Shown: positions 1-12,381 of the stretch, piece by piece
Layout: the number at the start of each line of letters is the position of its first letter
How positions within the stretch are numbered: position 1 is the first letter of the stretch
IMG/VR virus record: IMGVR_UViG_2778261231_000003
Source: a virus
Taxonomy: Duplodnaviria > Heunggongvirae > Uroviricota > Caudoviricetes
Direction: 5' to 3' (one strand)
DNA length: 37,653 bases
Notes under the pieces: model-generated
What the model saw: the letters and a program-made list of their open reading frames with translations, nothing else
What the model was told of the DNA's origin: nothing
Database searches by the model: none
Program-made: the position numbers and the translations under genes

Positions 1-128
1 CCACCGGTGAACTCAGCCCCCACCATGCCCACTGCGTTACCCTGTACCACAACGATTTAACCTGCGAAGCCGACACCCTTGGCAGTTGCGGCTACGTATA
101 CATCGCCATTTACCCCACTCAGAGTTAA
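1..128 (+). CDS. CbeA/YeeU-family antitoxin, C-terminal fragment (5' end lies outside the window)
   Basis: Frame ending at TAA 126-128 reads ...[29 protein letters not shown], matching the conserved C-terminus of CbeA/YeeU/YafW antitoxins (recalled from memory). The toxin gene starts 20 nt downstream. Confidence 0.6.
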
Positions 129-148
129 TTACCTTCACGAGAGTAAAC

Positions 149-490
149 ATGAAAACTTTACCTGCAACAACTCAGCGGGCGGCGAAGCCCTGCCTAGCAC
201 CCGTGGCTGTCTGGCAAATGCTACTGACCCGCCTGCTGAAACAGCACTATGGTCTCACCCTCAACGACACACCGTTCAGTGAGGAACGTGTTATACAGGA
301 ACATATCGATGCCGGAATCACGCTGGCTGATGCCGTGAATTTTCTGGTGGAAAAATACGAACTGGTGCGTATCGACAGGAAGGGATTTAACTGGCAGAAA
401 CAATCCCCTTATCTCCGGGCTGTAGACATTCTGCGAGCACGGCAGGCAACTGGCTTGTTGCGGCAAAGCCGTAACAACGTAGTACGATGA
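149..490 (+). CDS. cbtA: CbtA/YeeV/YkfI-family toxin (type IV toxin-antitoxin toxin)
   Basis: ORF-track product from [14 protein letters not shown]... carries the family motifs [18 protein letters not shown] and IDILRAR. The ATG at 149 (not the in-frame upstream start at 86) is chosen because it follows the antitoxin stop. Confidence 0.8.
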
Positions 491-1222: not shown

Positions 1223-2101
1223 TTACATTTCTAATGCTTTTTCTCTGCTAATTGATCCTTCACCATTGCAGGTTCTGCAATCTAATTTTATATTCCTGCA
1301 GTCAGGACAAGTGAATTTTTCATAATTAGAAAGATTCACCTTTGCAGCAATATATCTTTTTACGGATCCCATTCCATTACAGATCGGACAATCTTCTCCC
1401 GCTAAACTGCCTTTTCCATTACATAAAGGGCAAGTTACAGTGGATATCACTTCATTTTCATTTTCATTTTCATAAATAAAATTGTTGAAATTTTGGGCGT
1501 TTATTGTGCTTAGTTGAACTTTTTCAATTTTTTTTATGTGATGTTCAAAATACTTTTTAATTGCCTTCTTAAGATCCTCTTTAGACGATTTCCATTGTTC
1601 TGGTGAGATCCTAATCGATTGAAATCCTTCGTTACTAGTTATTACTGCATCACGCTTGTAAGTAGACTTAATTTTACTTTCCACATAATGAGCTATGTGG
1701 CCATCATACTCGATGCCAATAGCAGCAATCTCAACCAAATCTTGACCAATCCATCTATTTAGTCTAAGGACAAGGTCTATTGCCCAAGGCTGGGCTTTTG
1801 GGTTTATATTGCCAACCTTATACTGAGGCTCGATATAAACAATATGTCCGTTTGGGAATTGACCTTTCAGAGTTATTCGTCGTGGTGAATTTTGAAAACT
1901 ATCGATTTCCAATGGACTAAACTGAGATATGAGGCCGGCAATTACCTCTATCTCAGCCTGAGATGTTTTTTCCACTCCTTGTAAACTAATAAGACCGATA
2001 GCTACTTGACGGTTAGTGGCTGGCTCAATCCTTTTAAATAGTTTCTTCTGATTATTACTAAAATTATTTTTGATAACTTCAAGTGTTTCATCTAGTTCCA
2101 T
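1223..2101 (-). CDS. Predicted endonuclease: Vsr/DUF559-like PD-(D/E)xK core fused to a C-terminal DnaJ-type zinc finger (four CxxCxGxG motifs)
   Basis: ORF-track protein 1223..2110. Core motifs AIDLVL, GIEYDGHIAHY, KRDAVITSNEGFQSIRI follow the D...E-x-DG-x-H...RD...G pattern of Vsr/DUF559 endonucleases. C-terminus has CPLCNGKGS, CPICNGMGS, CPDCRN, CRTCNGEGS. ATG at 2101 preferred over GTG at 2110 because of a GGGTGAG Shine-Dalgarno. AT-rich codon usage. Confidence 0.55.
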   Translation of the reverse strand: MELDETLEVIKNNFSNNQKKLFKRIEPATNRQVAIGLISLQGVEKTSQAEIEVIAGLISQFSPLEIDSFQNSPRRITLKGQFPNGHIVYIEPQYKVGNINPKAQPWAIDLVLRLNRWIGQDLVEIAAIGIEYDGHIAHYVESKIKSTYKRDAVITSNEGFQSIRISPEQWKSSKEDLKKAIKKYFEHHIKKIEKVQLSTINAQNFNNFIYENENENEVISTVTCPLCNGKGSLAGEDCPICNGMGSVKRYIAAKVNLSNYEKFTCPDCRNIKLDCRTCNGEGSISREKALEM

Positions 2102-2233: not shown

Positions 2234-2836
2234 TTAGACTTCAATCGATTCAGAGATCTCTAACACATCATCTACTTCAATACCCAGATAACGGACTGTG
2301 CTTTCCAGTTTCTTATGGCCCAACAGAAGTTGGATCACCCGAAGATTCTTGGTTTTCTTGTAGATCAGGTAAGGTTTTGTTCTTCTCATGGAATGAGTGC
2401 TGTAAAGCGAATCTTCGAGACCAAGCTTTTCTACCCACCCATGAAAAATTCGGTTGTATTGCCGGGTAGATATGAGCTGATTAGTTCCGACCAGAAACCG
2501 AAACAAGAAGTCTTTACTATGCAAATTGCCAAGCATTATCAATGCAGCAACAGCTTCTCTTGTCCCTTTGGTTATCTCAAACTGCACAGGGCTACCGGTT
2601 TTCTGTTGCAGCACCGTAGCTCTGCTTGAAGCAGAGCTACCATATGCAACATCAGATACTTTGAGTTTGACCAGATCACAGCCTCGTAGCTTACTGTCCA
2701 GGGCCATATCGAACTGAGCTAAATCGCGCGTTTTACCTTCCAGTTCAAGCCGGATTCGGATCCCCCAGATATGAGATATCTGAAGTGGTCTTTTTTGGCC
2801 GATGATACGGTCTTTGTTCCACGGTGACGTGTTCAT
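2234..2836 (-). CDS. Short tyrosine recombinase (catalytic domain only, ~200 aa): truncated integrase or FimB/FimE-size recombinase
   Basis: Catalytic signature visible: Arg in LRGCDL, H-x-x-R in HSMRRT, LLGH and Y in VRYLGI. Start at MNTSPW (ATG 2836) preceded by GGAGA; the ORF-track start at 2890 lacks a ribosome-binding site. Confidence 0.65.
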   Translation of the reverse strand: MNTSPWNKDRIIGQKRPLQISHIWGIRIRLELEGKTRDLAQFDMALDSKLRGCDLVKLKVSDVAYGSSASSRATVLQQKTGSPVQFEITKGTREAVAALIMLGNLHSKDFLFRFLVGTNQLISTRQYNRIFHGWVEKLGLEDSLYSTHSMRRTKPYLIYKKTKNLRVIQLLLGHKKLESTVRYLGIEVDDVLEISESIEV

Positions 2837-2872
2837 ACTCAAATCTCCTGCAATGTGGGAGATTTGAGTATG
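2834..2872. promoter_or_regulatory. Perfect 15-bp inverted repeat with 9-bp spacer overlapping the recombinase start codon and Shine-Dalgarno
   Basis: CATACTCAAATCTCC (2834-2848), spacer TGCAATGTG, GGAGATTTGAGTATG (2858-2872). Arms are exact reverse complements. Geometry resembles a recombinase core site or a translation-sequestering hairpin. Confidence 0.5.
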
Positions 2873-3042
2873 GTTGTCCCTTATGAGCAAATCGCAGACG
2901 TAACATCAAGTTCATAGCTACCCTGGAGCACCTTATTATCCTGTATAACGATAAGTTGGGAAGCCAGTGGCCTCACAGTGTCCCCAAGATGGTGGTGTCT
3001 CTGCACCAAAGATGCGCTAGTTCAAATGTTAGTAAATATAAT

Positions 3043-3954
3043 TTATATGTAATCAGGTAGTGAATTCAAAGCCATCACTCTTTCTCTTTCTTTTTCTGTC
3101 ATTTCTCTCATAACAATTTGAGATAGCGCTAATGTTATCTCCTTTGTTTTATTGAAGGCTTCTTTGGTATATGTTTTCCTTCCATACTCAAGTTCATTAA
3201 ATGTCCCCATAATCCATTTGAGATAGAATAATGGGATGGCTAGATCACTTATATCCTGCCATCTCGTAATCGCTTTATATTCATTCCAAAAATAATCCTC
3301 AAAATGCTTATCACAATCACCTTTACACGCATAATAAACCGCTATCACCTCATTTGGTTTGTCATCGTGTATGATCTCTGCATTGCACACAATGCCATCA
3401 TAATTTTCTTCATGATGGTTTTCTATTAAGTCCTTTCCACAACGATCACATTTTATAGGTAAGTACTTATCAAAAATCAAATGCTTGGGTTTTATTTTTT
3501 TATAGCTCTCAGGAAAGTATCTAAGGAGTAGTTTTGAGTAACCAATTCTGACTAAGTGATTTTCAATTAATTTACCATCAAAGAATCGAAAGTCCTTTAT
3601 TTTTCCATTCTCTTTTAATTGCGTCATTCTTGAATTTAAACCACTACTTGGCAGTGTTGAGTAAAATCCAATAAATCCGTCGGCATTGAATCCATCAATA
3701 CGTTCTTGTATATTAATCTCATCCTTTTCTGAAACTGATTTTTTACTTGTTGCATAATGTTTACAGCTAACAAGCCAACGAAATTTATATTTATTTAACT
3801 GACCTTGCAATTGCTCTGTGATTAAAAGATCTTTACCTCCATCTGCACCTCTATCTGGCGCGGATTCAATATAAAAGCCAAGTTCTTCAAGAAAATCACG
3901 GGCAAATGACTCCCAGGCTTCACCGTCACTATCAATTTCAGTAAAGTTAATCAT
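3043..3954 (-). CDS. Predicted Mrr-like (PD-(D/E)xK restriction-endonuclease fold) nuclease domain protein with Cys/His-rich C-terminal region
   Basis: N-terminus EAWESFARDFLEELGFYIESAPDRGADGGKDLLITEQ...FRWLVSCKHY fits the Mrr catalytic-domain pattern (acidic residue, D-x-G-x-D-L, Q/E-x-K). C-terminal part has CDRCGKDL...C...ACKGDCDKH. GGGAG Shine-Dalgarno 9 nt upstream of ATG 3954. Very AT-rich. Confidence 0.55.
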   Translation of the reverse strand: MINFTEIDSDGEAWESFARDFLEELGFYIESAPDRGADGGKDLLITEQLQGQLNKYKFRWLVSCKHYATSKKSVSEKDEINIQERIDGFNADGFIGFYSTLPSSGLNSRMTQLKENGKIKDFRFFDGKLIENHLVRIGYSKLLLRYFPESYKKIKPKHLIFDKYLPIKCDRCGKDLIENHHEENYDGIVCNAEIIHDDKPNEVIAVYYACKGDCDKHFEDYFWNEYKAITRWQDISDLAIPLFYLKWIMGTFNELEYGRKTYTKEAFNKTKEITLALSQIVMREMTEKERERVMALNSLPDYI

Positions 3955-4331: not shown

Positions 4332-5201
<870 letters not shown>

Positions 5202-5225: not shown

Positions 5226-5263
5226 GCAGCACGATCTTCTTGCATACGACGTGCTACGGTTTC
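5226..5263 (+). repeat. Direct repeat copy 2, between the GIY-YIG stop and the invertase stop
   Basis: GCAGCACGATCTTCTTGCATACGACGTGCTACGGTTTC; internal inverted repeat AGCACG...CGTGCT. Overlaps the invertase stop codon (5262-5264) by 2 nt. Confidence 0.6.
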
Positions 5264-5816
5264 ATTTATCTCCGACCGGAAACTTCTTATACAGTGTCGA
5301 TATACCAACATCATAGATGATCGCCACCTTCTGGCGAGGAACGCCTGATGCAATTAATCGCCCGGCCTGCGCCCATTGTTCTGGTGTAAGTTTGGGACGA
5401 CGTCCCCCAATTCGTCCCTGTGCGCGAGCAGCTTCCAGTCCAGCTTTTGTTCGTTCAACAATCAGTTCTCGTTCCATTTCAGCCAGGGCACCCATCACAT
5501 GAAAGAAAAAACGCCCCATCGGTGTGCTGGTATCAATAGCATCCGTCAGGCTGCGAAAATTAACGCCACGTTCGCGCAACTCCTCAACCAGAATGACCAG
5601 ATGCCGCATACTACGCCCCAGCCGATCCAGCTTCCAGACAACCAGAGTGTCACCTGCCGATAATGTCCTGAGCAGTTTTTTCAGTCCCGGCCTTTCGGAC
5701 TTTGTACCGCTTATCTTGTCTTCAAAAATCAGCTCGCATCCTGCACAGTTCAGCGCATTACGTTGTAGATCTGTGTTCTGGTCATTTGTTGACACACGTA
5801 CATAGCCAATAAGCAT
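5262..5816 (-). CDS. Serine recombinase, DNA invertase of the Pin/Gin/Hin/Cin family
   Basis: N-terminus MLIGYVRVSTNDQNTDLQRNAL matches Pin/Gin invertases (from memory) and includes the catalytic serine; C-terminal HTH GVPRQKVAIIYDVGISTLYKK. GGGAGA Shine-Dalgarno upstream. Confidence 0.85.
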   Translation of the reverse strand: MLIGYVRVSTNDQNTDLQRNALNCAGCELIFEDKISGTKSERPGLKKLLRTLSAGDTLVVWKLDRLGRSMRHLVILVEELRERGVNFRSLTDAIDTSTPMGRFFFHVMGALAEMERELIVERTKAGLEAARAQGRIGGRRPKLTPEQWAQAGRLIASGVPRQKVAIIYDVGISTLYKKFPVGDK

Positions 5817-5993: not shown

Positions 5994-6383
5994 TTACTCC
6001 TTTTTCCCTGTATCGGCATCAGGTTCGCCATCAAACAGTTTGCCCTGCATCCGATCCAGTTCTTCTTTTCTGACCCGCTTCACCACGCTGTAAACCCACT
6101 GTAGTGAAACACCAAATTTGCGGGCCAGTTCGTGATGGTTGCGCCCGTCAAACTCCAGGAAAATTTCCCGGTCGCGCTGGCTGACCTTCCAGACCATGCC
6201 CATCGGAAAATAGACGTTTTGCCCACCCCAGACCTGCATCATGCGGTTCGCGACGGCCTGACCAATCTGGTCGGCAACTGCGGGTTCGATATCAATAATC
6301 TCGCGGACAGTCTCAGAGGTATGCTGTGCCAGTTCCACCAACAGTTCCGGCCCTTTACTACGAAACTGATTCAGGTCGCTCAT
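5994..6383 (-). CDS. Mor/C-family transcription activator
   Basis: GGQNVYFP and C-terminal HTH ELARKFGVSLQWVYSVVKRVR align with Mu Mor (from memory). ATG 6383 has a GGGAG Shine-Dalgarno and overlaps the GemA stop (ATGA); 129 aa. Confidence 0.8.
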   Translation of the reverse strand: MSDLNQFRSKGPELLVELAQHTSETVREIIDIEPAVADQIGQAVANRMMQVWGGQNVYFPMGMVWKVSQRDREIFLEFDGRNHHELARKFGVSLQWVYSVVKRVRKEELDRMQGKLFDGEPDADTGKKE

Positions 6384-6808
6384 TGCTTCACTCCCGCAGC
6401 TCTGCGCTGCCACTTCTTCAGTTTCTCAATCACGCTACTTGCCTGCTCATTGCTGAGCCAGCGTAACGCGCTGATGCCGGTTTCCCGTTTAACCCACAGC
6501 GCCAGCGCCTGCTCTGAACTGTCACGGACGATGCCTGCGGCAGCCATTTCAAGCCATAGCGCACGGATTTTCTTTGACTGCGGATGGCTGTCGAGCGGTA
6601 AGCCGGACTTGGCTTTCCCGGCAGGCTTAATGCGAAAGCCTTTCTTTTTCATTGATTCCAGCACGCGGTTTAGCTGTGGGGTATCCATCCCTTTGGTTGA
6701 GGCTTTGCCGGTCAGCCCCTGTAGCATCTGGCGGTAGGTGTCCTCATCCATCTGGAGGTCGCTGCGGGCAATATGAATGAGTTGAATAAGACGCTGCTTA
6801 GTCATCAT
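6380..6808 (-). CDS. GemA-like protein (Mu gp16 family, DUF1018)
   Basis: MMTKQRLIQLIHIARSDLQMDEDTYRQMLQGLTGKAS is the typical GemA N-terminus. Start at 6808 preceded by GGAG and overlapping the upstream stop; the ORF-track extension to 6997 lacks support. Confidence 0.7.
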   Translation of the reverse strand: MMTKQRLIQLIHIARSDLQMDEDTYRQMLQGLTGKASTKGMDTPQLNRVLESMKKKGFRIKPAGKAKSGLPLDSHPQSKKIRALWLEMAAAGIVRDSSEQALALWVKRETGISALRWLSNEQASSVIEKLKKWQRRAAGVKQ

Positions 6809-9434: not shown

Positions 9435-10601
9435 TTAAACTCCTTTGACGACGTCGGCGTTGACCTGCGGGACCCCGATTTCAGCAGCCAGATTCATGGC
9501 GGCTATCACCAGGTTACTGACGGCCAGCGGATACAGCAGGCTGACCATGCTTTTACGGCTACTACCCAGATTGCTCAGACGGGCGCGGATGGCTTCCACT
9601 GCGCTGGCGTCCATGATGTCGGCCAGCTGCTTACCGGCACGTTGCAGTTTGAACGTCAGAAACTCTTCGAGGCTGTTGTCCAGCGGCAGCAATTCAACCA
9701 ACTCGCAGCGCTGGACGACCTCACGGACTTCCATGTTGCGTTCGGACAGTTTGTCCGCCAGTTCAGGCTGGCCAATCAGCACGATGGACAGCAGTTTTTT
9801 GAAGCCGGACTCCAGTTCGAAGAAGCGTTTAAGGTGCTTCAGCGTCGGAATGGGAAGGCTGTGGGCCTCCTCAATCACCAGAACGTGGCTGAAACCCGCC
9901 TGACTGCTGTCCTTCAGGACTCGGTGCAACTGGCGGAAGCGGGCGTCCTGGCTGCGTTTGATACTCTCCAGCGGCGCGATGGTGCTGATGATGGCCTCGG
10001 CGATAGCTGCCGCCTTCAGGGTTTTGCCCTTCACGTCGTTGTCTTCCATGGCGATGATGTATGGCTCGATTACAATCACCGGCGCGTTCTCGCGGTTGAC
10101 GCGTTCAATCAGGTCGCGGCGCAGCGTGGATTTACCCGCACCGGACTCGCCGATAACCGCCAGAAAGCCACCATGGCGGGCGGTCTGGAACAGCGCCTCA
10201 CGCACGTAGCGGATATCCGGCGTGGTGAACACATCGTCCGCGCCCTGCATGGCTTCATCGGCGAACGGATCACGGAAAAGGCCAAACGCTTTTTTGGTTG
10301 CTGGAAATAACACCTGCTTTTTGAGTAACATGTTCTCTTCCTCACTGAGGTTGGTTTTATCGGTAGTACCCGCTGTACGGGGCGTGACAGCGCCCTGTGC
10401 AGCATCAAAACTTTTCACTGTATCAATCCCCTTACTTTCCAGATACAACGCCAGACGCTGGCGTACCTCTTCGGGGCTGGTGCGTGGCCACTCGTTATGG
10501 TTCACAATCTGGGCCAGCGTGGCCTCGGAAACGGCGACGGCTCTTGCCACCACCGCCTGCGGGATGCGGGCCTCTTTCAGTTGTTGCTTCAGTACCAGCA
10601 T
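9435..10601 (-). CDS. Transposition ATPase / target-DNA activator (Mu B-like AAA+ protein)
   Basis: N-terminal HTH region, Walker A GESGAGKST, downstream acidic Walker B-like stretch; sits directly after the transposase gene; GAGGAGG Shine-Dalgarno. Confidence 0.8.
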   Translation of the reverse strand: MLVLKQQLKEARIPQAVVARAVAVSEATLAQIVNHNEWPRTSPEEVRQRLALYLESKGIDTVKSFDAAQGAVTPRTAGTTDKTNLSEEENMLLKKQVLFPATKKAFGLFRDPFADEAMQGADDVFTTPDIRYVREALFQTARHGGFLAVIGESGAGKSTLRRDLIERVNRENAPVIVIEPYIIAMEDNDVKGKTLKAAAIAEAIISTIAPLESIKRSQDARFRQLHRVLKDSSQAGFSHVLVIEEAHSLPIPTLKHLKRFFELESGFKKLLSIVLIGQPELADKLSERNMEVREVVQRCELVELLPLDNSLEEFLTFKLQRAGKQLADIMDASAVEAIRARLSNLGSSRKSMVSLLYPLAVSNLVIAAMNLAAEIGVPQVNADVVKGV

Positions 10602-10611
10602 GCCTTCCTCC

Positions 10612-12381
10612 TCAGTTACCGTTAACGATGCTGATAACGCTGTTGCGGGCCGGAGTGGTCAGGGTAACCATCACCTCATCCAGCGCGGCTTCAGGTACGC
10701 CATCCGGGTACTGCGCCGTTAACTGGCGGTAATGTTCCGGCGTCCAGATATGGCCGTTAGCGCCAAACTTCTCGCGCAGGGCTTTCGCCGCCTCCACATG
10801 GGTCAGCGGACGCTGCTCAATACGCGGCCCGCGCACGTCTGAAGCCTGACCGCGCTTCGGCATATAGGCCGGAAGCGTGGTGTCGTCGATATGTTTGTAC
10901 GGGTCAAGTCGCCCGCCGAACGGCAGCGCCTTCGCCTTGCGTGCAGCAGCTGCATCGGTGGCGTTATCGGTGCCCGTAACCAGCTCTTCGATTTCTTTTG
11001 CCGCCGTCTGCGCCGGGGTCTCCGGCAGGGCTTTGTAGTTTTCGCCAAATACCGCCGCGTTTTCGGCAAAGCCGAACTCGTTCTTTCTGACCTCCTCGAC
11101 CAGGAAGAACGTCTCGTGACCGTCCTCACCGGTCAGCACCACCTGCGCCACATCGCTGCGCCACGGGTTACGGGTAATCATCAGTTTTTCGCCGACCAGT
11201 ACGCCCGGTACCGTCGAAACGTCAAACTCATTGCCCCGGAACGAGACGCGCAGTTTTGGTGTGACCTTACGGAGTTCCGGTGCGGCCACCGCCAGTTCGC
11301 GGCAAACCTCAACGGATGGCGCTTTTTTCAGCTGGTCAGCAGTAATCTTCAGCCAGATATCCGTGCGGGTTTTACCGTGGCGGCTGTGGACCGCCGTGGC
11401 GTTAAAGTGGCTGCGCCATTTCACCGCCAGTGCGTTCAGTTCGTCCAGGCTATGAACCGGCTGGAATTTGAGACCCGGCTCCAGTTTACGTTCGATAATG
11501 TCACGGGCCTTTTCCACCTGCCCGGTGGCGCGGGCGTTATGCGGCTTGTGCGCTATCAGATTGATGCCCAGCGAGCGGCACATGTTTTTCGTCATGCCAG
11601 CGGTGTTCGCCGAACCGGGATCAAGGTAGAGTATTTTCGGCACGCCGTGCAGCACGTCCGCGCCGCCGCGCTCCTGCATGGCGTTGATAAGCACAGAACA
11701 GAGGTTCTCACCAGATTCCGCACCCATCACGTACTCAACGTAAATCCAGCCGCTGGTATGGTCGGTAATCTCGTAACTCCACACGCGGTCACTGGCGATG
11801 CGGGCGATGTTGGCAGGCTTGTTCTTGTAGAACTTCGAGCTGTCCATCACCTGCAACCCTTTATGGCCGTTGCTCAGGTAGTAAAGCGTACAAAGTGAGG
11901 CATCAATCTCCCAGACGTGATTGGGATGCAGGCTGGCCATCTCGGACGACGGGGCCGGTGCGTCAAGCTGTTCCGGGTGCAGACCATAGTTCCGCAGGGC
12001 GCGGCTGATGGTGTCCTCGGACAGCGGGAAAAACTCGCCTGTGGCCTCGTCCGTTCTGCCAGCAGTGATAAAGCCGTTTGACCGCAGGGTCTCCACCGCA
12101 TCCGCGATGGAATACAGGCGCTTACCGTTCTTACGGGTGGCCTCGCGCAGCGTGGCAGATATCAGCGCGGCTTCGTCGCGGCTCAGGGCACTGCGCCCGG
12201 CATCGGCGCGTTTTTTACGTTTGTCAGTCACTGATACCTCCTTCAGCTTGCGCAGCAGGGTGGCGCGGGAAATGCCCAGTTCGGCGCAGGCGGCATCATA
12301 TATCGCACCACGCTTACCATGCCCCGCGTCACGTGCCGCGCGGGCAACATAAACCAGTCGTTCAGTCAGGGCGGCACTCAT
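10612..12381 (-). CDS. DDE transposase (phage transposase A; rve/integrase-core type)
   Basis: 589 aa, N-terminal HTH, central integrase-core-like region (HPNHVWEIDAS...); AGGAGG Shine-Dalgarno; upstream of the B-like ATPase as in transposable phages. Confidence 0.8.
   Translation of the reverse strand: MSAALTERLVYVARAARDAGHGKRGAIYDAACAELGISRATLLRKLKEVSVTDKRKKRADAGRSALSRDEAALISATLREATRKNGKRLYSIADAVETLRSNGFITAGRTDEATGEFFPLSEDTISRALRNYGLHPEQLDAPAPSSEMASLHPNHVWEIDASLCTLYYLSNGHKGLQVMDSSKFYKNKPANIARIASDRVWSYEITDHTSGWIYVEYVMGAESGENLCSVLINAMQERGGADVLHGVPKILYLDPGSANTAGMTKNMCRSLGINLIAHKPHNARATGQVEKARDIIERKLEPGLKFQPVHSLDELNALAVKWRSHFNATAVHSRHGKTRTDIWLKITADQLKKAPSVEVCRELAVAAPELRKVTPKLRVSFRGNEFDVSTVPGVLVGEKLMITRNPWRSDVAQVVLTGEDGHETFFLVEEVRKNEFGFAENAAVFGENYKALPETPAQTAAKEIEELVTGTDNATDAAAARKAKALPFGGRLDPYKHIDDTTLPAYMPKRGQASDVRGPRIEQRPLTHVEAAKALREKFGANGHIWTPEHYRQLTAQYPDGVPEAALDEVMVTLTTPARNSVISIVNGN

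What the first reader, a model, noticed from the sequence alone, without database searches (positions are those of the whole stretch)
1223..2101. Unusual fusion of a Vsr/DUF559-like endonuclease core with a four-repeat DnaJ-type zinc finger
The central region has the D...E-x-DG-x-H...RD...G arrangement (AIDLVL, GIEYDGHIAHY, KRDAVITSNEGFQSIRI) of Vsr-like PD-(D/E)xK endonucleases. The C-terminal 60 residues carry four CxxCxGxG-type motifs, normally a chaperone substrate-binding or zinc-ribbon module. I do not recognise this architecture from any described protein; it could be a stand-alone effector with a zinc-ribbon sensor.
Basis: partly seen in the sequence, partly recalled or inferred. Interest (0 to 1): 0.65.

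Follow-up and report, generated by a model that had tools for sequence, protein, structure and literature searches.

The report
Stand-alone Vsr-like nuclease with zinc ribbons
This is a real, uncharacterised 292-residue gene that joins a Vsr/DUF559-type DNA-cutting domain to two small zinc-binding units, travels alone between phage-defence hotspots of many bacteria, and is therefore most likely a new single-gene anti-phage nuclease, although nobody has tested it.

The parts
1223..2101 (-). Complete CDS of 292 aa plus stop codon (alternative GTG start at 2110). It is a stand-alone gene with 35% GC.
   Evidence: ORF listing and translation. Annotated as hypothetical protein WP_088540995.1 in E. 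coli 21EVA. 31 homologue clusters. GC content.
1970..2101 (-). N-terminal three-helix region, residues 1-44, with conserved FSNxQKKL (S15 and Q18 at least 90% conserved). Function unknown. It always accompanies the nuclease core, including in the paralogues that lack the zinc units.
   Evidence: AF2 helices 2-12, 16-28 and 31-38 with pLDDT above 90. Conservation. Paralogue sequences.
1604..1969 (-). Vsr/DUF559-like PD-(D/E)xK nuclease core, residues 45-166. The secondary-structure order is helix 48-58, five strands between 65 and 132, helix 141-158 and strand 161-165. Putative active-site residues are E50, D109 (1775-1777), E131 (1709-1711), D133 (1703-1705), H138 (1688-1690), R150 (1652-1654) and D151 (1649-1651).
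1469..1603 (-). Long basic alpha-helix, residues 167-211, linking the nuclease to the zinc units. It is a candidate dimerisation or DNA-contact element (inference).
   Evidence: AF2 helix 167-211. Median net charge +4 across the family.
1442..1474 (-). Low-confidence Asn/Glu-rich flexible linker, residues 210-220 (YENENENEVIS).
   Evidence: pLDDT below 50 for residues 210-217. The column lengths here vary in the alignment.
1358..1441 (-). Zinc unit 1, residues 221-248: CPLCNGKG, six residues, then CPICNGMG (C224, C227, C238, C241).
   Evidence: Conserved cysteines. Pfam DnaJ_CXXCXGXG and NCBIfam anti-TRAP RtpA hit at residues 222-247. PDB profile hits 1exk and 3lcz. The +14 spacing of CxxC pairs is the same as in the relatives.
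1319..1357 (-). Inter-unit linker, residues 249-261, with the conserved (D/N)-L-S-x-Y motif and two short helices. The same linker separates the units in the HNH-(zinc unit)n proteins.
   Evidence: AF2 helices 249-254 and 257-260. BLASTP alignment to P0047 repeats. Y at least 90% conserved.
1247..1318 (-). Zinc unit 2, residues 262-285: CPDCRNIKLD then CRTCNGEG (C265, C268, C275, C278). Its first motif lacks GxG.
1226..1246 (-). Conserved C-terminal helix (I)SREKALE, residues 286-292 (R286 and A289 at least 90% conserved).

Best explanation
The gene encodes a self-contained, single-protein nuclease that is carried as cargo by phages, satellites and integrons. Its most likely job is to protect the host or the resident element against other incoming phages.

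Proposed mechanism:
1. The Vsr/DUF559-type core (D109, E131, D133, H138, with R150 and D151) binds divalent metal and cuts nucleic acid, most probably DNA.
2. The long basic helix lets the protein dimerise or contact DNA.
3. The two C-terminal one-zinc CxxCxGxG units form an exchangeable recognition or regulation module. They either hold the nuclease inactive until a phage-derived ligand (protein or nucleic acid) is bound, or they tether it to its target.

What is shown here: the fold, the conserved catalytic-type residues, the zinc-unit family, the stand-alone status and the hotspot contexts.

What is inferred: nuclease activity, DNA as the substrate, the anti-phage role, zinc binding, and the sensor or regulator role of the zinc units.
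For: Fold and active site:
- AF2 model with pLDDT 89.
- D109, E131, D133, H138 and R150 are invariant across 32 sequences.

Stand-alone status:
- An all-against-all comparison of flanking ORFs in 15 loci finds no shared neighbour outside one Vibrio lineage.
- In V. parahaemolyticus the gene is the only ORF between two attC-type repeats.
- No Rfam RNA family matches next to the gene.

Context:
- It lies in Vibrio integron arrays.
- In Photobacterium it sits immediately beside a divergently oriented integrase, which would fit a first integron cassette.
- It lies between gpA and portal gpQ in a V. splendidus P2-like prophage. That is the P2 defence hotspot defined in PMC9122126.
- It lies between int and the delta/sid genes of a P4-like satellite, which is the P4 hotspot position.
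- It is found on a 90-kb contig with a P7-type C1 repressor that is also listed in the viral contig collection.
- It lies next to Hachiman, AbiGi and DUF4238; SIR2_2 plus an ATPase and a RES-Xre pair; HEPN_RiboL-PSP and a weak BrnT-like hit; and DUF6602 and DUF2971.
- In this window it lies about 2.3 kb from PD-T4-3 (E 2.7e-140) and about 0.9 kb from an Mrr_cat nuclease, at a prophage end.

Rarity and foreign origin:
- It is present in 8 of 5426 complete E. coli genomes.
- Its GC content is 35%, against 54% for the window.

Modularity:
- The nuclease module also occurs with other C-termini.
- The zinc unit also occurs on HNH nucleases, including a Septu-like PtuB subclass that sits next to an AAA_15/AAA_21 ATPase.
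- Single-gene nuclease-fusion integron cassettes have been shown experimentally to be anti-phage (10.1101/2024.07.02.601686).
Against: - There is no experimental evidence for any family member.
- No full-length hit was found in PADLOC-DB v2. The only match is to the C-terminal part of PDC-M01B.
- Pfam scores for both domains fall below the gathering thresholds.
- Guilt by association in hotspots is probabilistic. [quoted passage not shown]
- Two loci (Halomonas, Gilliamella) show no obvious mobile or defence neighbours.
- The zinc region is not basic (median net charge 0), so a DNA-binding role is not favoured. No trigger is known.
- Some Vsr-fold domains, such as RAP, bind RNA or are not catalytic.
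Confidence: 0.55

Rival explanations
1. It is a weapon or addiction module that serves the mobile element rather than the host. Examples would be a nuclease used in competition between elements (prophage against satellite or plasmid) or one that stabilises the carrier, without general anti-phage activity.
For: Every informative context is itself a mobile element: a prophage end, P2 and P4 hotspots, a probable phage contig and integron cassettes. PMC9122126 stresses that hotspot genes take part in competition between viruses.
Against: In practice this overlaps with defence. Most hotspot systems that target other elements also score as anti-phage. No cognate immunity gene or antitoxin is conserved next to it, which an addiction module would need.
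Confidence: 0.15
2. It is a toxin whose antitoxin or immunity factor is encoded elsewhere or lies within the same polypeptide, with the zinc units acting as a built-in inhibitor. On this reading it is a growth-arrest effector rather than a nuclease directed at phage nucleic acid.
For: Stand-alone nucleases in defence islands often act by abortive infection. The flexible linker and separate C-terminal module fit autoinhibition. Toxin-antitoxin genes are frequent neighbours: a weak BrnT-like hit, RES-Xre, HipA and CbtA.
Against: There is no conserved partner. The Vibrio cassette leaves only about 70 bp upstream, so there is no room for a second gene or RNA. Intact copies are maintained in many lineages without an antitoxin.
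Confidence: 0.12
3. It is a homing-type or otherwise selfish endonuclease, like the Vsr-fold homing enzyme I-Bth0305I, that promotes its own spread.
Against: The gene is never inside an intron, an intein or a conserved host gene. It sits in different, well-known cargo slots and in attC-bounded cassettes that are moved by an integrase, not by homing. tblastn found no copies in 50,697 phage genomes.
Confidence: 0.05
4. It is a housekeeping-type repair or RNA-processing factor, acting like Vsr in mismatch nicking or like a RAP domain on RNA, and it happens to reside on mobile DNA.
For: Vsr itself and RAP or FASTK domains are among the structural neighbours. Two loci lie among ordinary metabolic genes.
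Against: Only 3 hits were found in 100,044 species-representative genomes, and the gene is in 8 of 5426 E. coli genomes. It does not co-occur with a Dcm-type methylase, which is the functional partner of Vsr. Its GC content is foreign.
Confidence: 0.05

Closest known systems
DUF559 / Vsr-like PD-(D/E)xK nucleases (N. gonorrhoeae NGO0050, PDB 3hrl; E. coli Vsr, 1cw0; homing endonuclease I-Bth0305I, 3r3p; Pfam MTES_1575)
   Different: Sequence similarity is below family thresholds (21.4 bits against a cut-off of 38.2). The target has an extra conserved N-terminal helical region, a 45-residue helix and two zinc units. It has no Dcm partner and no intron context.
PADLOC candidate PDC-M01B, model PDLC04253: a Septu-like PtuB HNH nuclease with a C-terminal zinc module
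   Same: It has the same C-terminal module of two 41-aa CxxC...CxxC units. The target matches profile positions 246-362 with E 4.9e-15, and shows 36% identity over 67 aa to P0207. In both cases a nuclease carries this module.
   Different: The nuclease fold is HNH, not PD-(D/E)xK. The gene is always paired with an upstream AAA_15/AAA_21 ATPase, whereas the target has no partner. Most PDC-M01B models (about 280 aa) lack the zinc module altogether.
HNH_2-(zinc unit)n proteins of about 400-560 aa, often annotated 'zinc finger domain-containing protein' or 'DnaJ-class molecular chaperone'
   Same: They have the same 41-aa unit and the same inter-unit D-L-S-x-Y/F linker. The architecture is again a nuclease at the N-terminus and zinc units at the C-terminus.
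   Different: They carry 3-7 units instead of 2 and an HNH nuclease instead of a Vsr-like one. They are much more widespread (Proteobacteria, Firmicutes, Myxococcota). Their function is also unknown.
DnaJ cysteine-rich domain (PF00684) and B. subtilis anti-TRAP (RtpA)
   Different: The target has no J domain, G/F region or DnaJ C-terminal domains, and it scores below the Pfam cut-off. Only one 34-35-residue unit superposes. Unit numbers in relatives can be odd, which fits local anti-TRAP-like zinc binding by neighbouring motifs rather than DnaJ's interleaved 1+4 / 2+3 arrangement.
Validated single-gene nuclease-fusion cassettes of Vibrio chromosomal integrons (Epona, Divona, Damona; Darracq et al., 10.1101/2024.07.02.601686)
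   Same: Each is a single-gene integron cassette that fuses a nuclease domain to an unrelated second domain. The genomic niche in Vibrio is the same.
   Different: The nuclease subfamilies differ (Mrr_cat, RecB-like, DUF6602) and so do the partner domains. The paper does not mention a zinc-finger or Vsr-like cassette. Those systems were tested; this one was not.

Membership tests
PD-(D/E)xK nuclease superfamily, Vsr/DUF559 branch | Restriction-endonuclease-like alpha/beta core fold | tested here: met
PD-(D/E)xK nuclease superfamily, Vsr/DUF559 branch | Conserved acidic and histidine active-site motif (D on one core strand, E-x-D-G-x3-H at the end of the next) | tested here: met
   D109, E131, D133, G134 and H138 are invariant in 32 sequences. 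D133 is N or E in a few distant zinc-less paralogues.
PD-(D/E)xK nuclease superfamily, Vsr/DUF559 branch | Score above the curated threshold of a Pfam family of this branch (MTES_1575, DUF559, Vsr) | tested here: not met
   MTES_1575 scores 21.4 bits against a cut-off of 38.2 (E 2.6e-4). Neither DUF559 nor Vsr appears among the hits. 17 of 32 members match MTES_1575 at E below 0.01. The gene is therefore a relative at superfamily level, not a member of those families.
PD-(D/E)xK nuclease superfamily, Vsr/DUF559 branch | Metal-dependent phosphodiester cleavage | not testable with these tools
   This needs purified protein and active-site mutants.
DnaJ cysteine-rich (CR) domain, PF00684 | Four CxxCxGxG repeats scoring above the Pfam gathering threshold | tested here: not met
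   The score is 29.7 bits against a cut-off of 32.7. Motif 3 (CPDCRNIK) lacks GxG here and in the family consensus.
DnaJ cysteine-rich (CR) domain, PF00684 | Interleaved two-zinc topology (motifs 1+4 and 2+3) forming one domain | tested here: inconclusive
DnaJ cysteine-rich (CR) domain, PF00684 | Embedded in a J-domain chaperone (J domain, G/F region, C-terminal substrate-binding domains) | tested here: not met
   NCBIfam DnaJ models match only residues 203-291, at 32 bits against cut-offs above 330. The rest of the protein is a nuclease.
Anti-TRAP-like single-zinc CxxCxGxG unit | Two neighbouring CxxC motifs about 14 residues apart forming one unit | tested here: met
Septu / PADLOC PDC-M01 (PtuA ATPase plus PtuB HNH nuclease) | Adjacent PtuA-type ABC ATPase gene | tested here: not met
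   No ATPase lies next to the gene in the window or in any of the 15 compared loci. By contrast, P0207 and P0209 sit directly after an AAA_15/AAA_21 gene.
Septu / PADLOC PDC-M01 (PtuA ATPase plus PtuB HNH nuclease) | HNH nuclease domain in the B protein | tested here: not met
   There is no HNH hit. Only the last 120 residues match PDLC04253.
Anti-phage defence system (functional class) | Recurrent location in defence islands or mobile-element defence hotspots | tested here: met
   About 11 of 13 distinct lineage contexts are integron cassettes, P2 or P4 hotspots, prophage ends, a probable phage contig, or neighbours of known defence genes. No statistical background model was run.
Anti-phage defence system (functional class) | Measured protection against phage infection | not testable with these tools
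   No report was found. The accession, domain and keyword searches were empty. The term searches inside five papers found no zinc-finger, DnaJ or Vsr system.

The most novel reading that the evidence does not exclude
The 41-aa CxxCxGxG one-zinc unit may be a previously unrecognised, portable module with a variable copy number. It has been attached independently to nucleases of at least two unrelated folds: Vsr-like PD-(D/E)xK here, and HNH in PtuB-like and HNH-(unit)n proteins. It could act as the infection sensor, for example by imitating the client-binding cysteine-rich region of DnaJ to capture phage proteins that depend on the host DnaK/DnaJ chaperones, and so switch the nuclease on. On this reading the gene would be the founding member of a new single-gene defence family, and the zinc unit would be a general trigger-recognition domain.
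Probability: 0.12. Interest if true: 0.8.

Novelty: new variant of a known kind. Interest (0 to 1): 0.55.

Why it matters
If the protein is confirmed as anti-phage, it would add a compact (0.9 kb) single-gene defence system with a domain combination that is not in PADLOC-DB v2 or the Pfam copy searched.

It would also give a function to a zinc-ribbon repeat that decorates hundreds of HNH nucleases now mislabelled as DnaJ-class chaperones, and to a subclass of Septu-like PtuB proteins.

Because it works alone and fits in an integron cassette, it is an easy system in which to study how a nuclease effector is kept silent and then triggered.

The gene also marks a small defence cluster at a prophage end in E. 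coli, together with an Mrr-like nuclease and PD-T4-3.

Tried and rejected
- Conserved partner gene or antitoxin. An all-against-all BLASTP of flanking ORFs from 15 loci found only attC-derived pseudo-ORFs within one Vibrio lineage. Rejected.
- Co-transfer with the adjacent truncated tyrosine recombinase as an integron remnant. It shares only 22% identity with the Photobacterium integrase and has the wrong orientation. Rejected.
- Non-coding RNA partner. Rfam found nothing near the gene.
- Own sigma-70 promoter or terminator. The consensus scan gave no more sites than shuffled sequence, and none was convincingly placed upstream of the gene. A TTGACA at about 2195 on the - strand lacks a good -10 box at a 16-18 nt spacing. 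No claim is made.
- Phage-borne copies. tblastn against 50,697 phage genomes found none. PHROGs gave only marginal zinc-finger hits. The plasmid collection gave only a zinc-unit hit in a Methylobacterium HNH protein.
- Literature. The accession numbers, 'DnaJ-like zinc finger' with anti-phage, Vsr-like with zinc finger and defence, CHP02642/TIGR02642/PF27659, and PtuB with DnaJ were searched. The integron, P2/P4-hotspot and language-model defence papers were also checked, as were the stored (partly truncated) P2/P4 supplements. No description turned up.
- AFDB50 fold search. The library was unavailable.
- Context of the HNH-(unit)n protein P0071. It was not on record, and the look-ups were then exhausted.
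- Sequence search of the PDB with the family profile. It found only zinc-finger hits and no nuclease. The nuclease relationship is visible only at the level of structure and of sub-threshold Pfam scores.
Full report
**1. The observation**

Window 1223-2101 on the - strand is an intact ORF of 292 codons. The ATG is at 2101, an in-frame GTG lies at 2110, and the stop codon is TAA at 1223-1225.

Four CxxC motifs start at residues 224, 238, 265 and 275. Three are complete CxxCxGxG motifs. The third, CPDCRNIK, has no GxG.

The gene has 35% GC in a window of 54% (profile). RefSeq annotates the identical product as a hypothetical protein, WP_088540995.1. A 99.5% identical DNA variant encodes WP_000417871.1. 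The gene is present in only 8 of 5426 complete E. coli genomes.

**2. It is a real, conserved protein family**

A search of 5.8 billion proteins found 31 clusters, with identities from 96% down to 30%. They come from Escherichia, Citrobacter, Vibrio, Photobacterium, Pseudomonas, Halomonas, Delftia and metagenomes. Where they carry a name at all, it is 'hypothetical' or 'zinc finger-like'.

In the alignment (A1):
- Invariant: S47, E50, Q93, D109, G129, E131, Y132, D133, G134, H138, Y148, R150, C224, C227, G229 and C238.
- Conserved in at least 90%: D151 and the remaining cysteines.

In the 30-sequence alignment of the zinc region (A2), all eight cysteines are invariant.

An exhaustive profile search of 1.84 billion cluster representatives gave only 219 hits at E up to 0.001. 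Scans of 100,044 species genomes and of IMG/VR found 3 loci each. The family is rare.

**3. The nuclease half**

AlphaFold2 on alignment A1 gave a confident model, with mean pLDDT 89 and pTM 0.67. Its parts are:
- three N-terminal helices (residues 2-38);
- a core of helix 48-58, five strands between 65 and 132, helix 141-158 and strand 161-165;
- a single 45-residue helix (167-211);
- a disordered ENENEN linker;
- a small C-terminal domain.

Foldseek against viral models gave only weak hits, but they were to DUF559, DUF2726 and a 'VSR homing endonuclease'.

At sequence level the only nuclease signal is Pfam MTES_1575. It matches residues 104-181 at E 2.6e-4 and 21.4 bits, below the 38.2-bit cut-off. 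It is seen in 17 of the 32 family members. The family profile found no nuclease in the PDB by sequence.

The protein is therefore a relative of the Vsr/DUF559 branch at superfamily level. It has the branch's catalytic-type residues intact, but it is not a member of any curated family in the Pfam copy searched.

**4. The zinc half**

The named sequence hits are:
- Pfam DnaJ_CXXCXGXG at E 7.6e-7 (29.7 bits, cut-off 32.7; 25 of 32 members match);
- NCBIfam DnaJ models, matching only residues 203-291;
- anti-TRAP RtpA, matching residues 222-247;
- PDB DnaJ CR domain 1exk at E 8.9e-6 and anti-TRAP 3lcz at E 0.03.

The precomputed 'PF27659' label on some homologues is CHP02642, a faint hit to a phage zinc-finger family.

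The closest relatives of this region are not chaperones. They are nucleases. The exhaustive search returned many HNH proteins in which pairs of CxxC motifs, 14-16 residues apart, recur with a strict period of about 41 residues. They carry 2, 3, 4, 5, 6 or 7 pairs. BLASTP shows that the target's two pairs and the D/N-L-S-x-Y linker between them align to every repeat of P0047 at 37-42% identity.

Odd numbers of pairs cannot be satisfied by DnaJ's interleaved zinc sites (motifs 1+4 and 2+3). The unit is therefore most simply one zinc bound by two neighbouring motifs, as in anti-TRAP.

The region is not basic (median net charge 0), whereas the preceding long helix has a median charge of +4.

**5. 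The same zinc module on other nucleases, and the nuclease with other tails**

PADLOC-DB gave one relevant hit for the target. This was PDC-M01B model PDLC04253, with target residues 172-291 matching profile positions 246-362 of 366 at E 4.9e-15.

Full-length members of that model (P0113, P0148, P0207) are HNH proteins of about 365 aa. Their first 280 residues match the many other PDC-M01B models, which lack the zinc tail. P0207 and P0209 sit 3 bp downstream of an AAA_15/AAA_21 ATPase gene. PDC-M01 calls coincide with Septu in the B. cereus group (PMC11811056). This is therefore a PtuB-like nuclease subclass that has acquired the two-unit tail.

A much larger family of HNH_2 plus 3-7 units is spread over several phyla. 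It is often mis-named 'DnaJ-class molecular chaperone'. The one locus examined, in Methylobacterium, showed no ATPase partner.

Conversely, the target's N-terminal region plus nuclease occurs with other C-termini. There are proteins of about 240 aa ending in a short conserved 'P(D/E)F-x-V ... G ... A-x-P' segment, and a 362-aa protein with an unrelated 150-residue tail.

Both halves therefore behave as exchangeable modules.

**6. Genomic context**

No neighbour is conserved. A BLASTP comparison of all ORFs of at least 40 aa within 3 kb of the gene, in 15 loci, found matches only among three V. parahaemolyticus integron arrays. Most of those were translated attC-type repeats.

In V. parahaemolyticus the gene is the only ORF between two copies of the array's 86-135-nt repeat. 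In L003 the repeats are at 9800-9933 and 10851-10984, and the gene is at 10001-10855. This leaves no room for a second gene or an RNA partner.

Other contexts are:
- Photobacterium: directly beside a divergent tyrosine integrase, which would fit a first integron cassette.
- V. splendidus: between the gpA replication gene and the portal gene gpQ of a P2-like prophage. Rousset et al. define this interval as the P2 defence hotspot, the site of old and tin (PMC9122126).
- An enterobacterial metagenome contig: between the integrase and the delta/sid-like genes of a P4-like satellite next to smpB. This is the position of the P4 psu-int hotspot, although psu itself is not called there.
- A 90-kb contig carrying a P7-type C1 repressor, which is also in the viral contig collection.
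- Beside HamA plus a DEAD/ResIII helicase (a Hachiman-type pair), AbiGi and DUF4238.
- Beside SIR2_2 plus a ParA-like ATPase, and a RES-Xre pair.
- Beside HEPN_RiboL-PSP and a weak BrnT-like hit in P. aeruginosa.
- Beside DUF2971 and DUF6602 proteins in Pseudomonas sp. ML96. DUF6602 is the domain of the validated cassette Damona.
- At a prophage edge in Delftia.
- Two loci, Halomonas and Gilliamella, are uninformative.

In E. coli the gene lies at the end of a prophage with a Mu-like tail module. The order is tail-fibre genes, pinE, a GIY-YIG protein, an Mrr-like nuclease, a truncated integrase, the target gene and then the chromosomal junction.

In this window:
- The GIY-YIG gene (4377-5201) is PD-T4-3, with PADLOC E 2.7e-140.
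- The 303-aa protein (3043-3954) carries Mrr_cat. Its DNA is 91% identical to a P2-EC67 moron record.
- A separate Mu-like transposable phage has inserted at about 5833, just beyond the invertase gene.

**7. Interpretation**

What is shown: a conserved protein of foreign origin that moves alone, with a Vsr/DUF559-type nuclease fold, intact catalytic-type residues and two CxxCxGxG zinc-type units. It recurs in the cargo slots where phages, satellites and integrons keep anti-phage genes.

What is inferred: that it is an active metal-dependent nuclease working in phage defence or in conflict between mobile elements, and that the zinc units recognise or regulate. Three points support a recognition or regulation role:
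- the module is swapped for other tails on the same nuclease;
- its copy number varies on HNH nucleases;
- the flexible linker would allow it to dock back on the catalytic domain.

Its neutral charge argues mildly against simple DNA binding. By analogy with DnaJ CR, anti-TRAP and BSD2, which are all protein binders (established knowledge), I favour protein recognition or autoinhibition, with low confidence.

Experimental precedent for the class comes from Vibrio integron cassettes that fuse nuclease domains to unrelated domains and do protect against phage (10.1101/2024.07.02.601686). It also comes from the P2/P4 hotspot screens (PMC9122126).

**8. Rivals**

- Inter-element weapon or addiction module. 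This overlaps with defence, and no immunity gene was found.
- Toxin with built-in inhibition. This is plausible as the mode of action, abortive infection, rather than as a separate hypothesis.
- Homing endonuclease. There is no intron, intein or target-gene context, and no phage copies were found.
- Repair or RNA-processing factor. The rarity, foreign GC content and absence of a Dcm partner argue against it.

**9. Novelty**

I found no description of this family. The full-text searches by accession number, domain name and keyword were empty. Term searches inside the integron, hotspot and language-model defence papers, and in the stored (partly truncated) hotspot supplements, found no zinc-finger, DnaJ or Vsr system.

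PADLOC-DB v2 (2023) has no full-length model, and NCBIfam and PHROGs have none. I could not run the newest DefenseFinder models or HHpred, so a very recent description cannot be excluded.

The kind, a single-protein nuclease-based candidate defence gene, is well known. The domain combination, and the recognition that one 41-aa zinc unit decorates nucleases of two different folds, appear to be new.

I rate it a new variant of a known kind, with interest 0.55.

Noticed in passing
window 4377-5201 (+): A LEM-3-like GIY-YIG protein that matches the PADLOC model for the validated defence gene PD-T4-3 over its full length (E 2.7e-140). It lies about 2.3 kb from the target.
   Followed up: partly
window 3043-3954 (-): A 303-aa protein with an N-terminal Mrr_cat nuclease domain and a Cys/His-rich C-terminal half. 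It has no PADLOC or PHROGs family. Its DNA is 91% identical to the P2-EC67 moron record AJ512685, so it is another hotspot cargo gene of unknown role.
   Followed up: partly
window 2234-2890 (-): A truncated tyrosine recombinase (catalytic domain only, about 200 aa) immediately upstream of the target and in the same orientation, in all 8 E. coli copies. It shares only 22% identity with the integrase beside the Photobacterium homologue, so it is not evidence of joint transfer.
   Followed up: yes
window 5262-5816 (-) and 5833-37653: A Pin/Hin-type invertase marks the end of the older prophage. From about 5833 a separate Mu-like transposable prophage is inserted (99.1% identical to Escherichia phage Phi06_2974 B; Mor at 5994-6413, rve transposase at 10612-12381). 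In other E. coli strains tail-fibre genes follow pinE instead.
   Followed up: partly
window 86-490 (+) and 1000-1193: A CbtA-family type IV toxin gene (Pfam E 1e-65) lies to the left. The 194 bp just downstream of the target are shared at about 98% identity with roughly 3800 E. coli genomes, so the island junction lies at about 1194-1222.
   Followed up: no
P0047, P0056, P0060 and more than 100 relatives; L028 5681-7240: A widespread family of HNH_2 nucleases that carry 3-7 tandem 41-aa CxxC...CxxC units with a conserved D-L-S-x-Y/F linker. They are often annotated 'DnaJ-class molecular chaperone', which looks like a misannotation. Their function is unknown.
   Followed up: partly
P0046, P0054, P0061, P0062, P0065, P0089 (about 240 aa) and P0045 (362 aa): Paralogues that keep the N-terminal helices and the Vsr-like core but replace the zinc units with a short conserved 'P(D/E)F-x-V' segment or an unrelated 150-residue domain. 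In a few of them the second acidic residue of E-x-D-G is N or E.
   Followed up: partly
P0111, P0122, P0124, P0131, P0145, P0149 and others (81-120 aa): Free-standing proteins that consist of just two of the zinc units. Their genomic context and role (partner, decoy or fragment) were not examined.
   Followed up: no
L010 3561-8364 (E. coli E275a) and L005 14840-18539 (P. aeruginosa): In two distant hosts the gene lies within a few kb of PaoABC-type aldehyde oxidoreductase genes. This is probably coincidence or a shared insertion-prone region.
   Followed up: no
window 1372-1391 and 1414-1433: A 20-nt direct repeat, 80% identical and 42 nt apart, inside the gene. It is the DNA trace of the two adjacent CxxCxGxG motifs of zinc unit 1.
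   Followed up: yes
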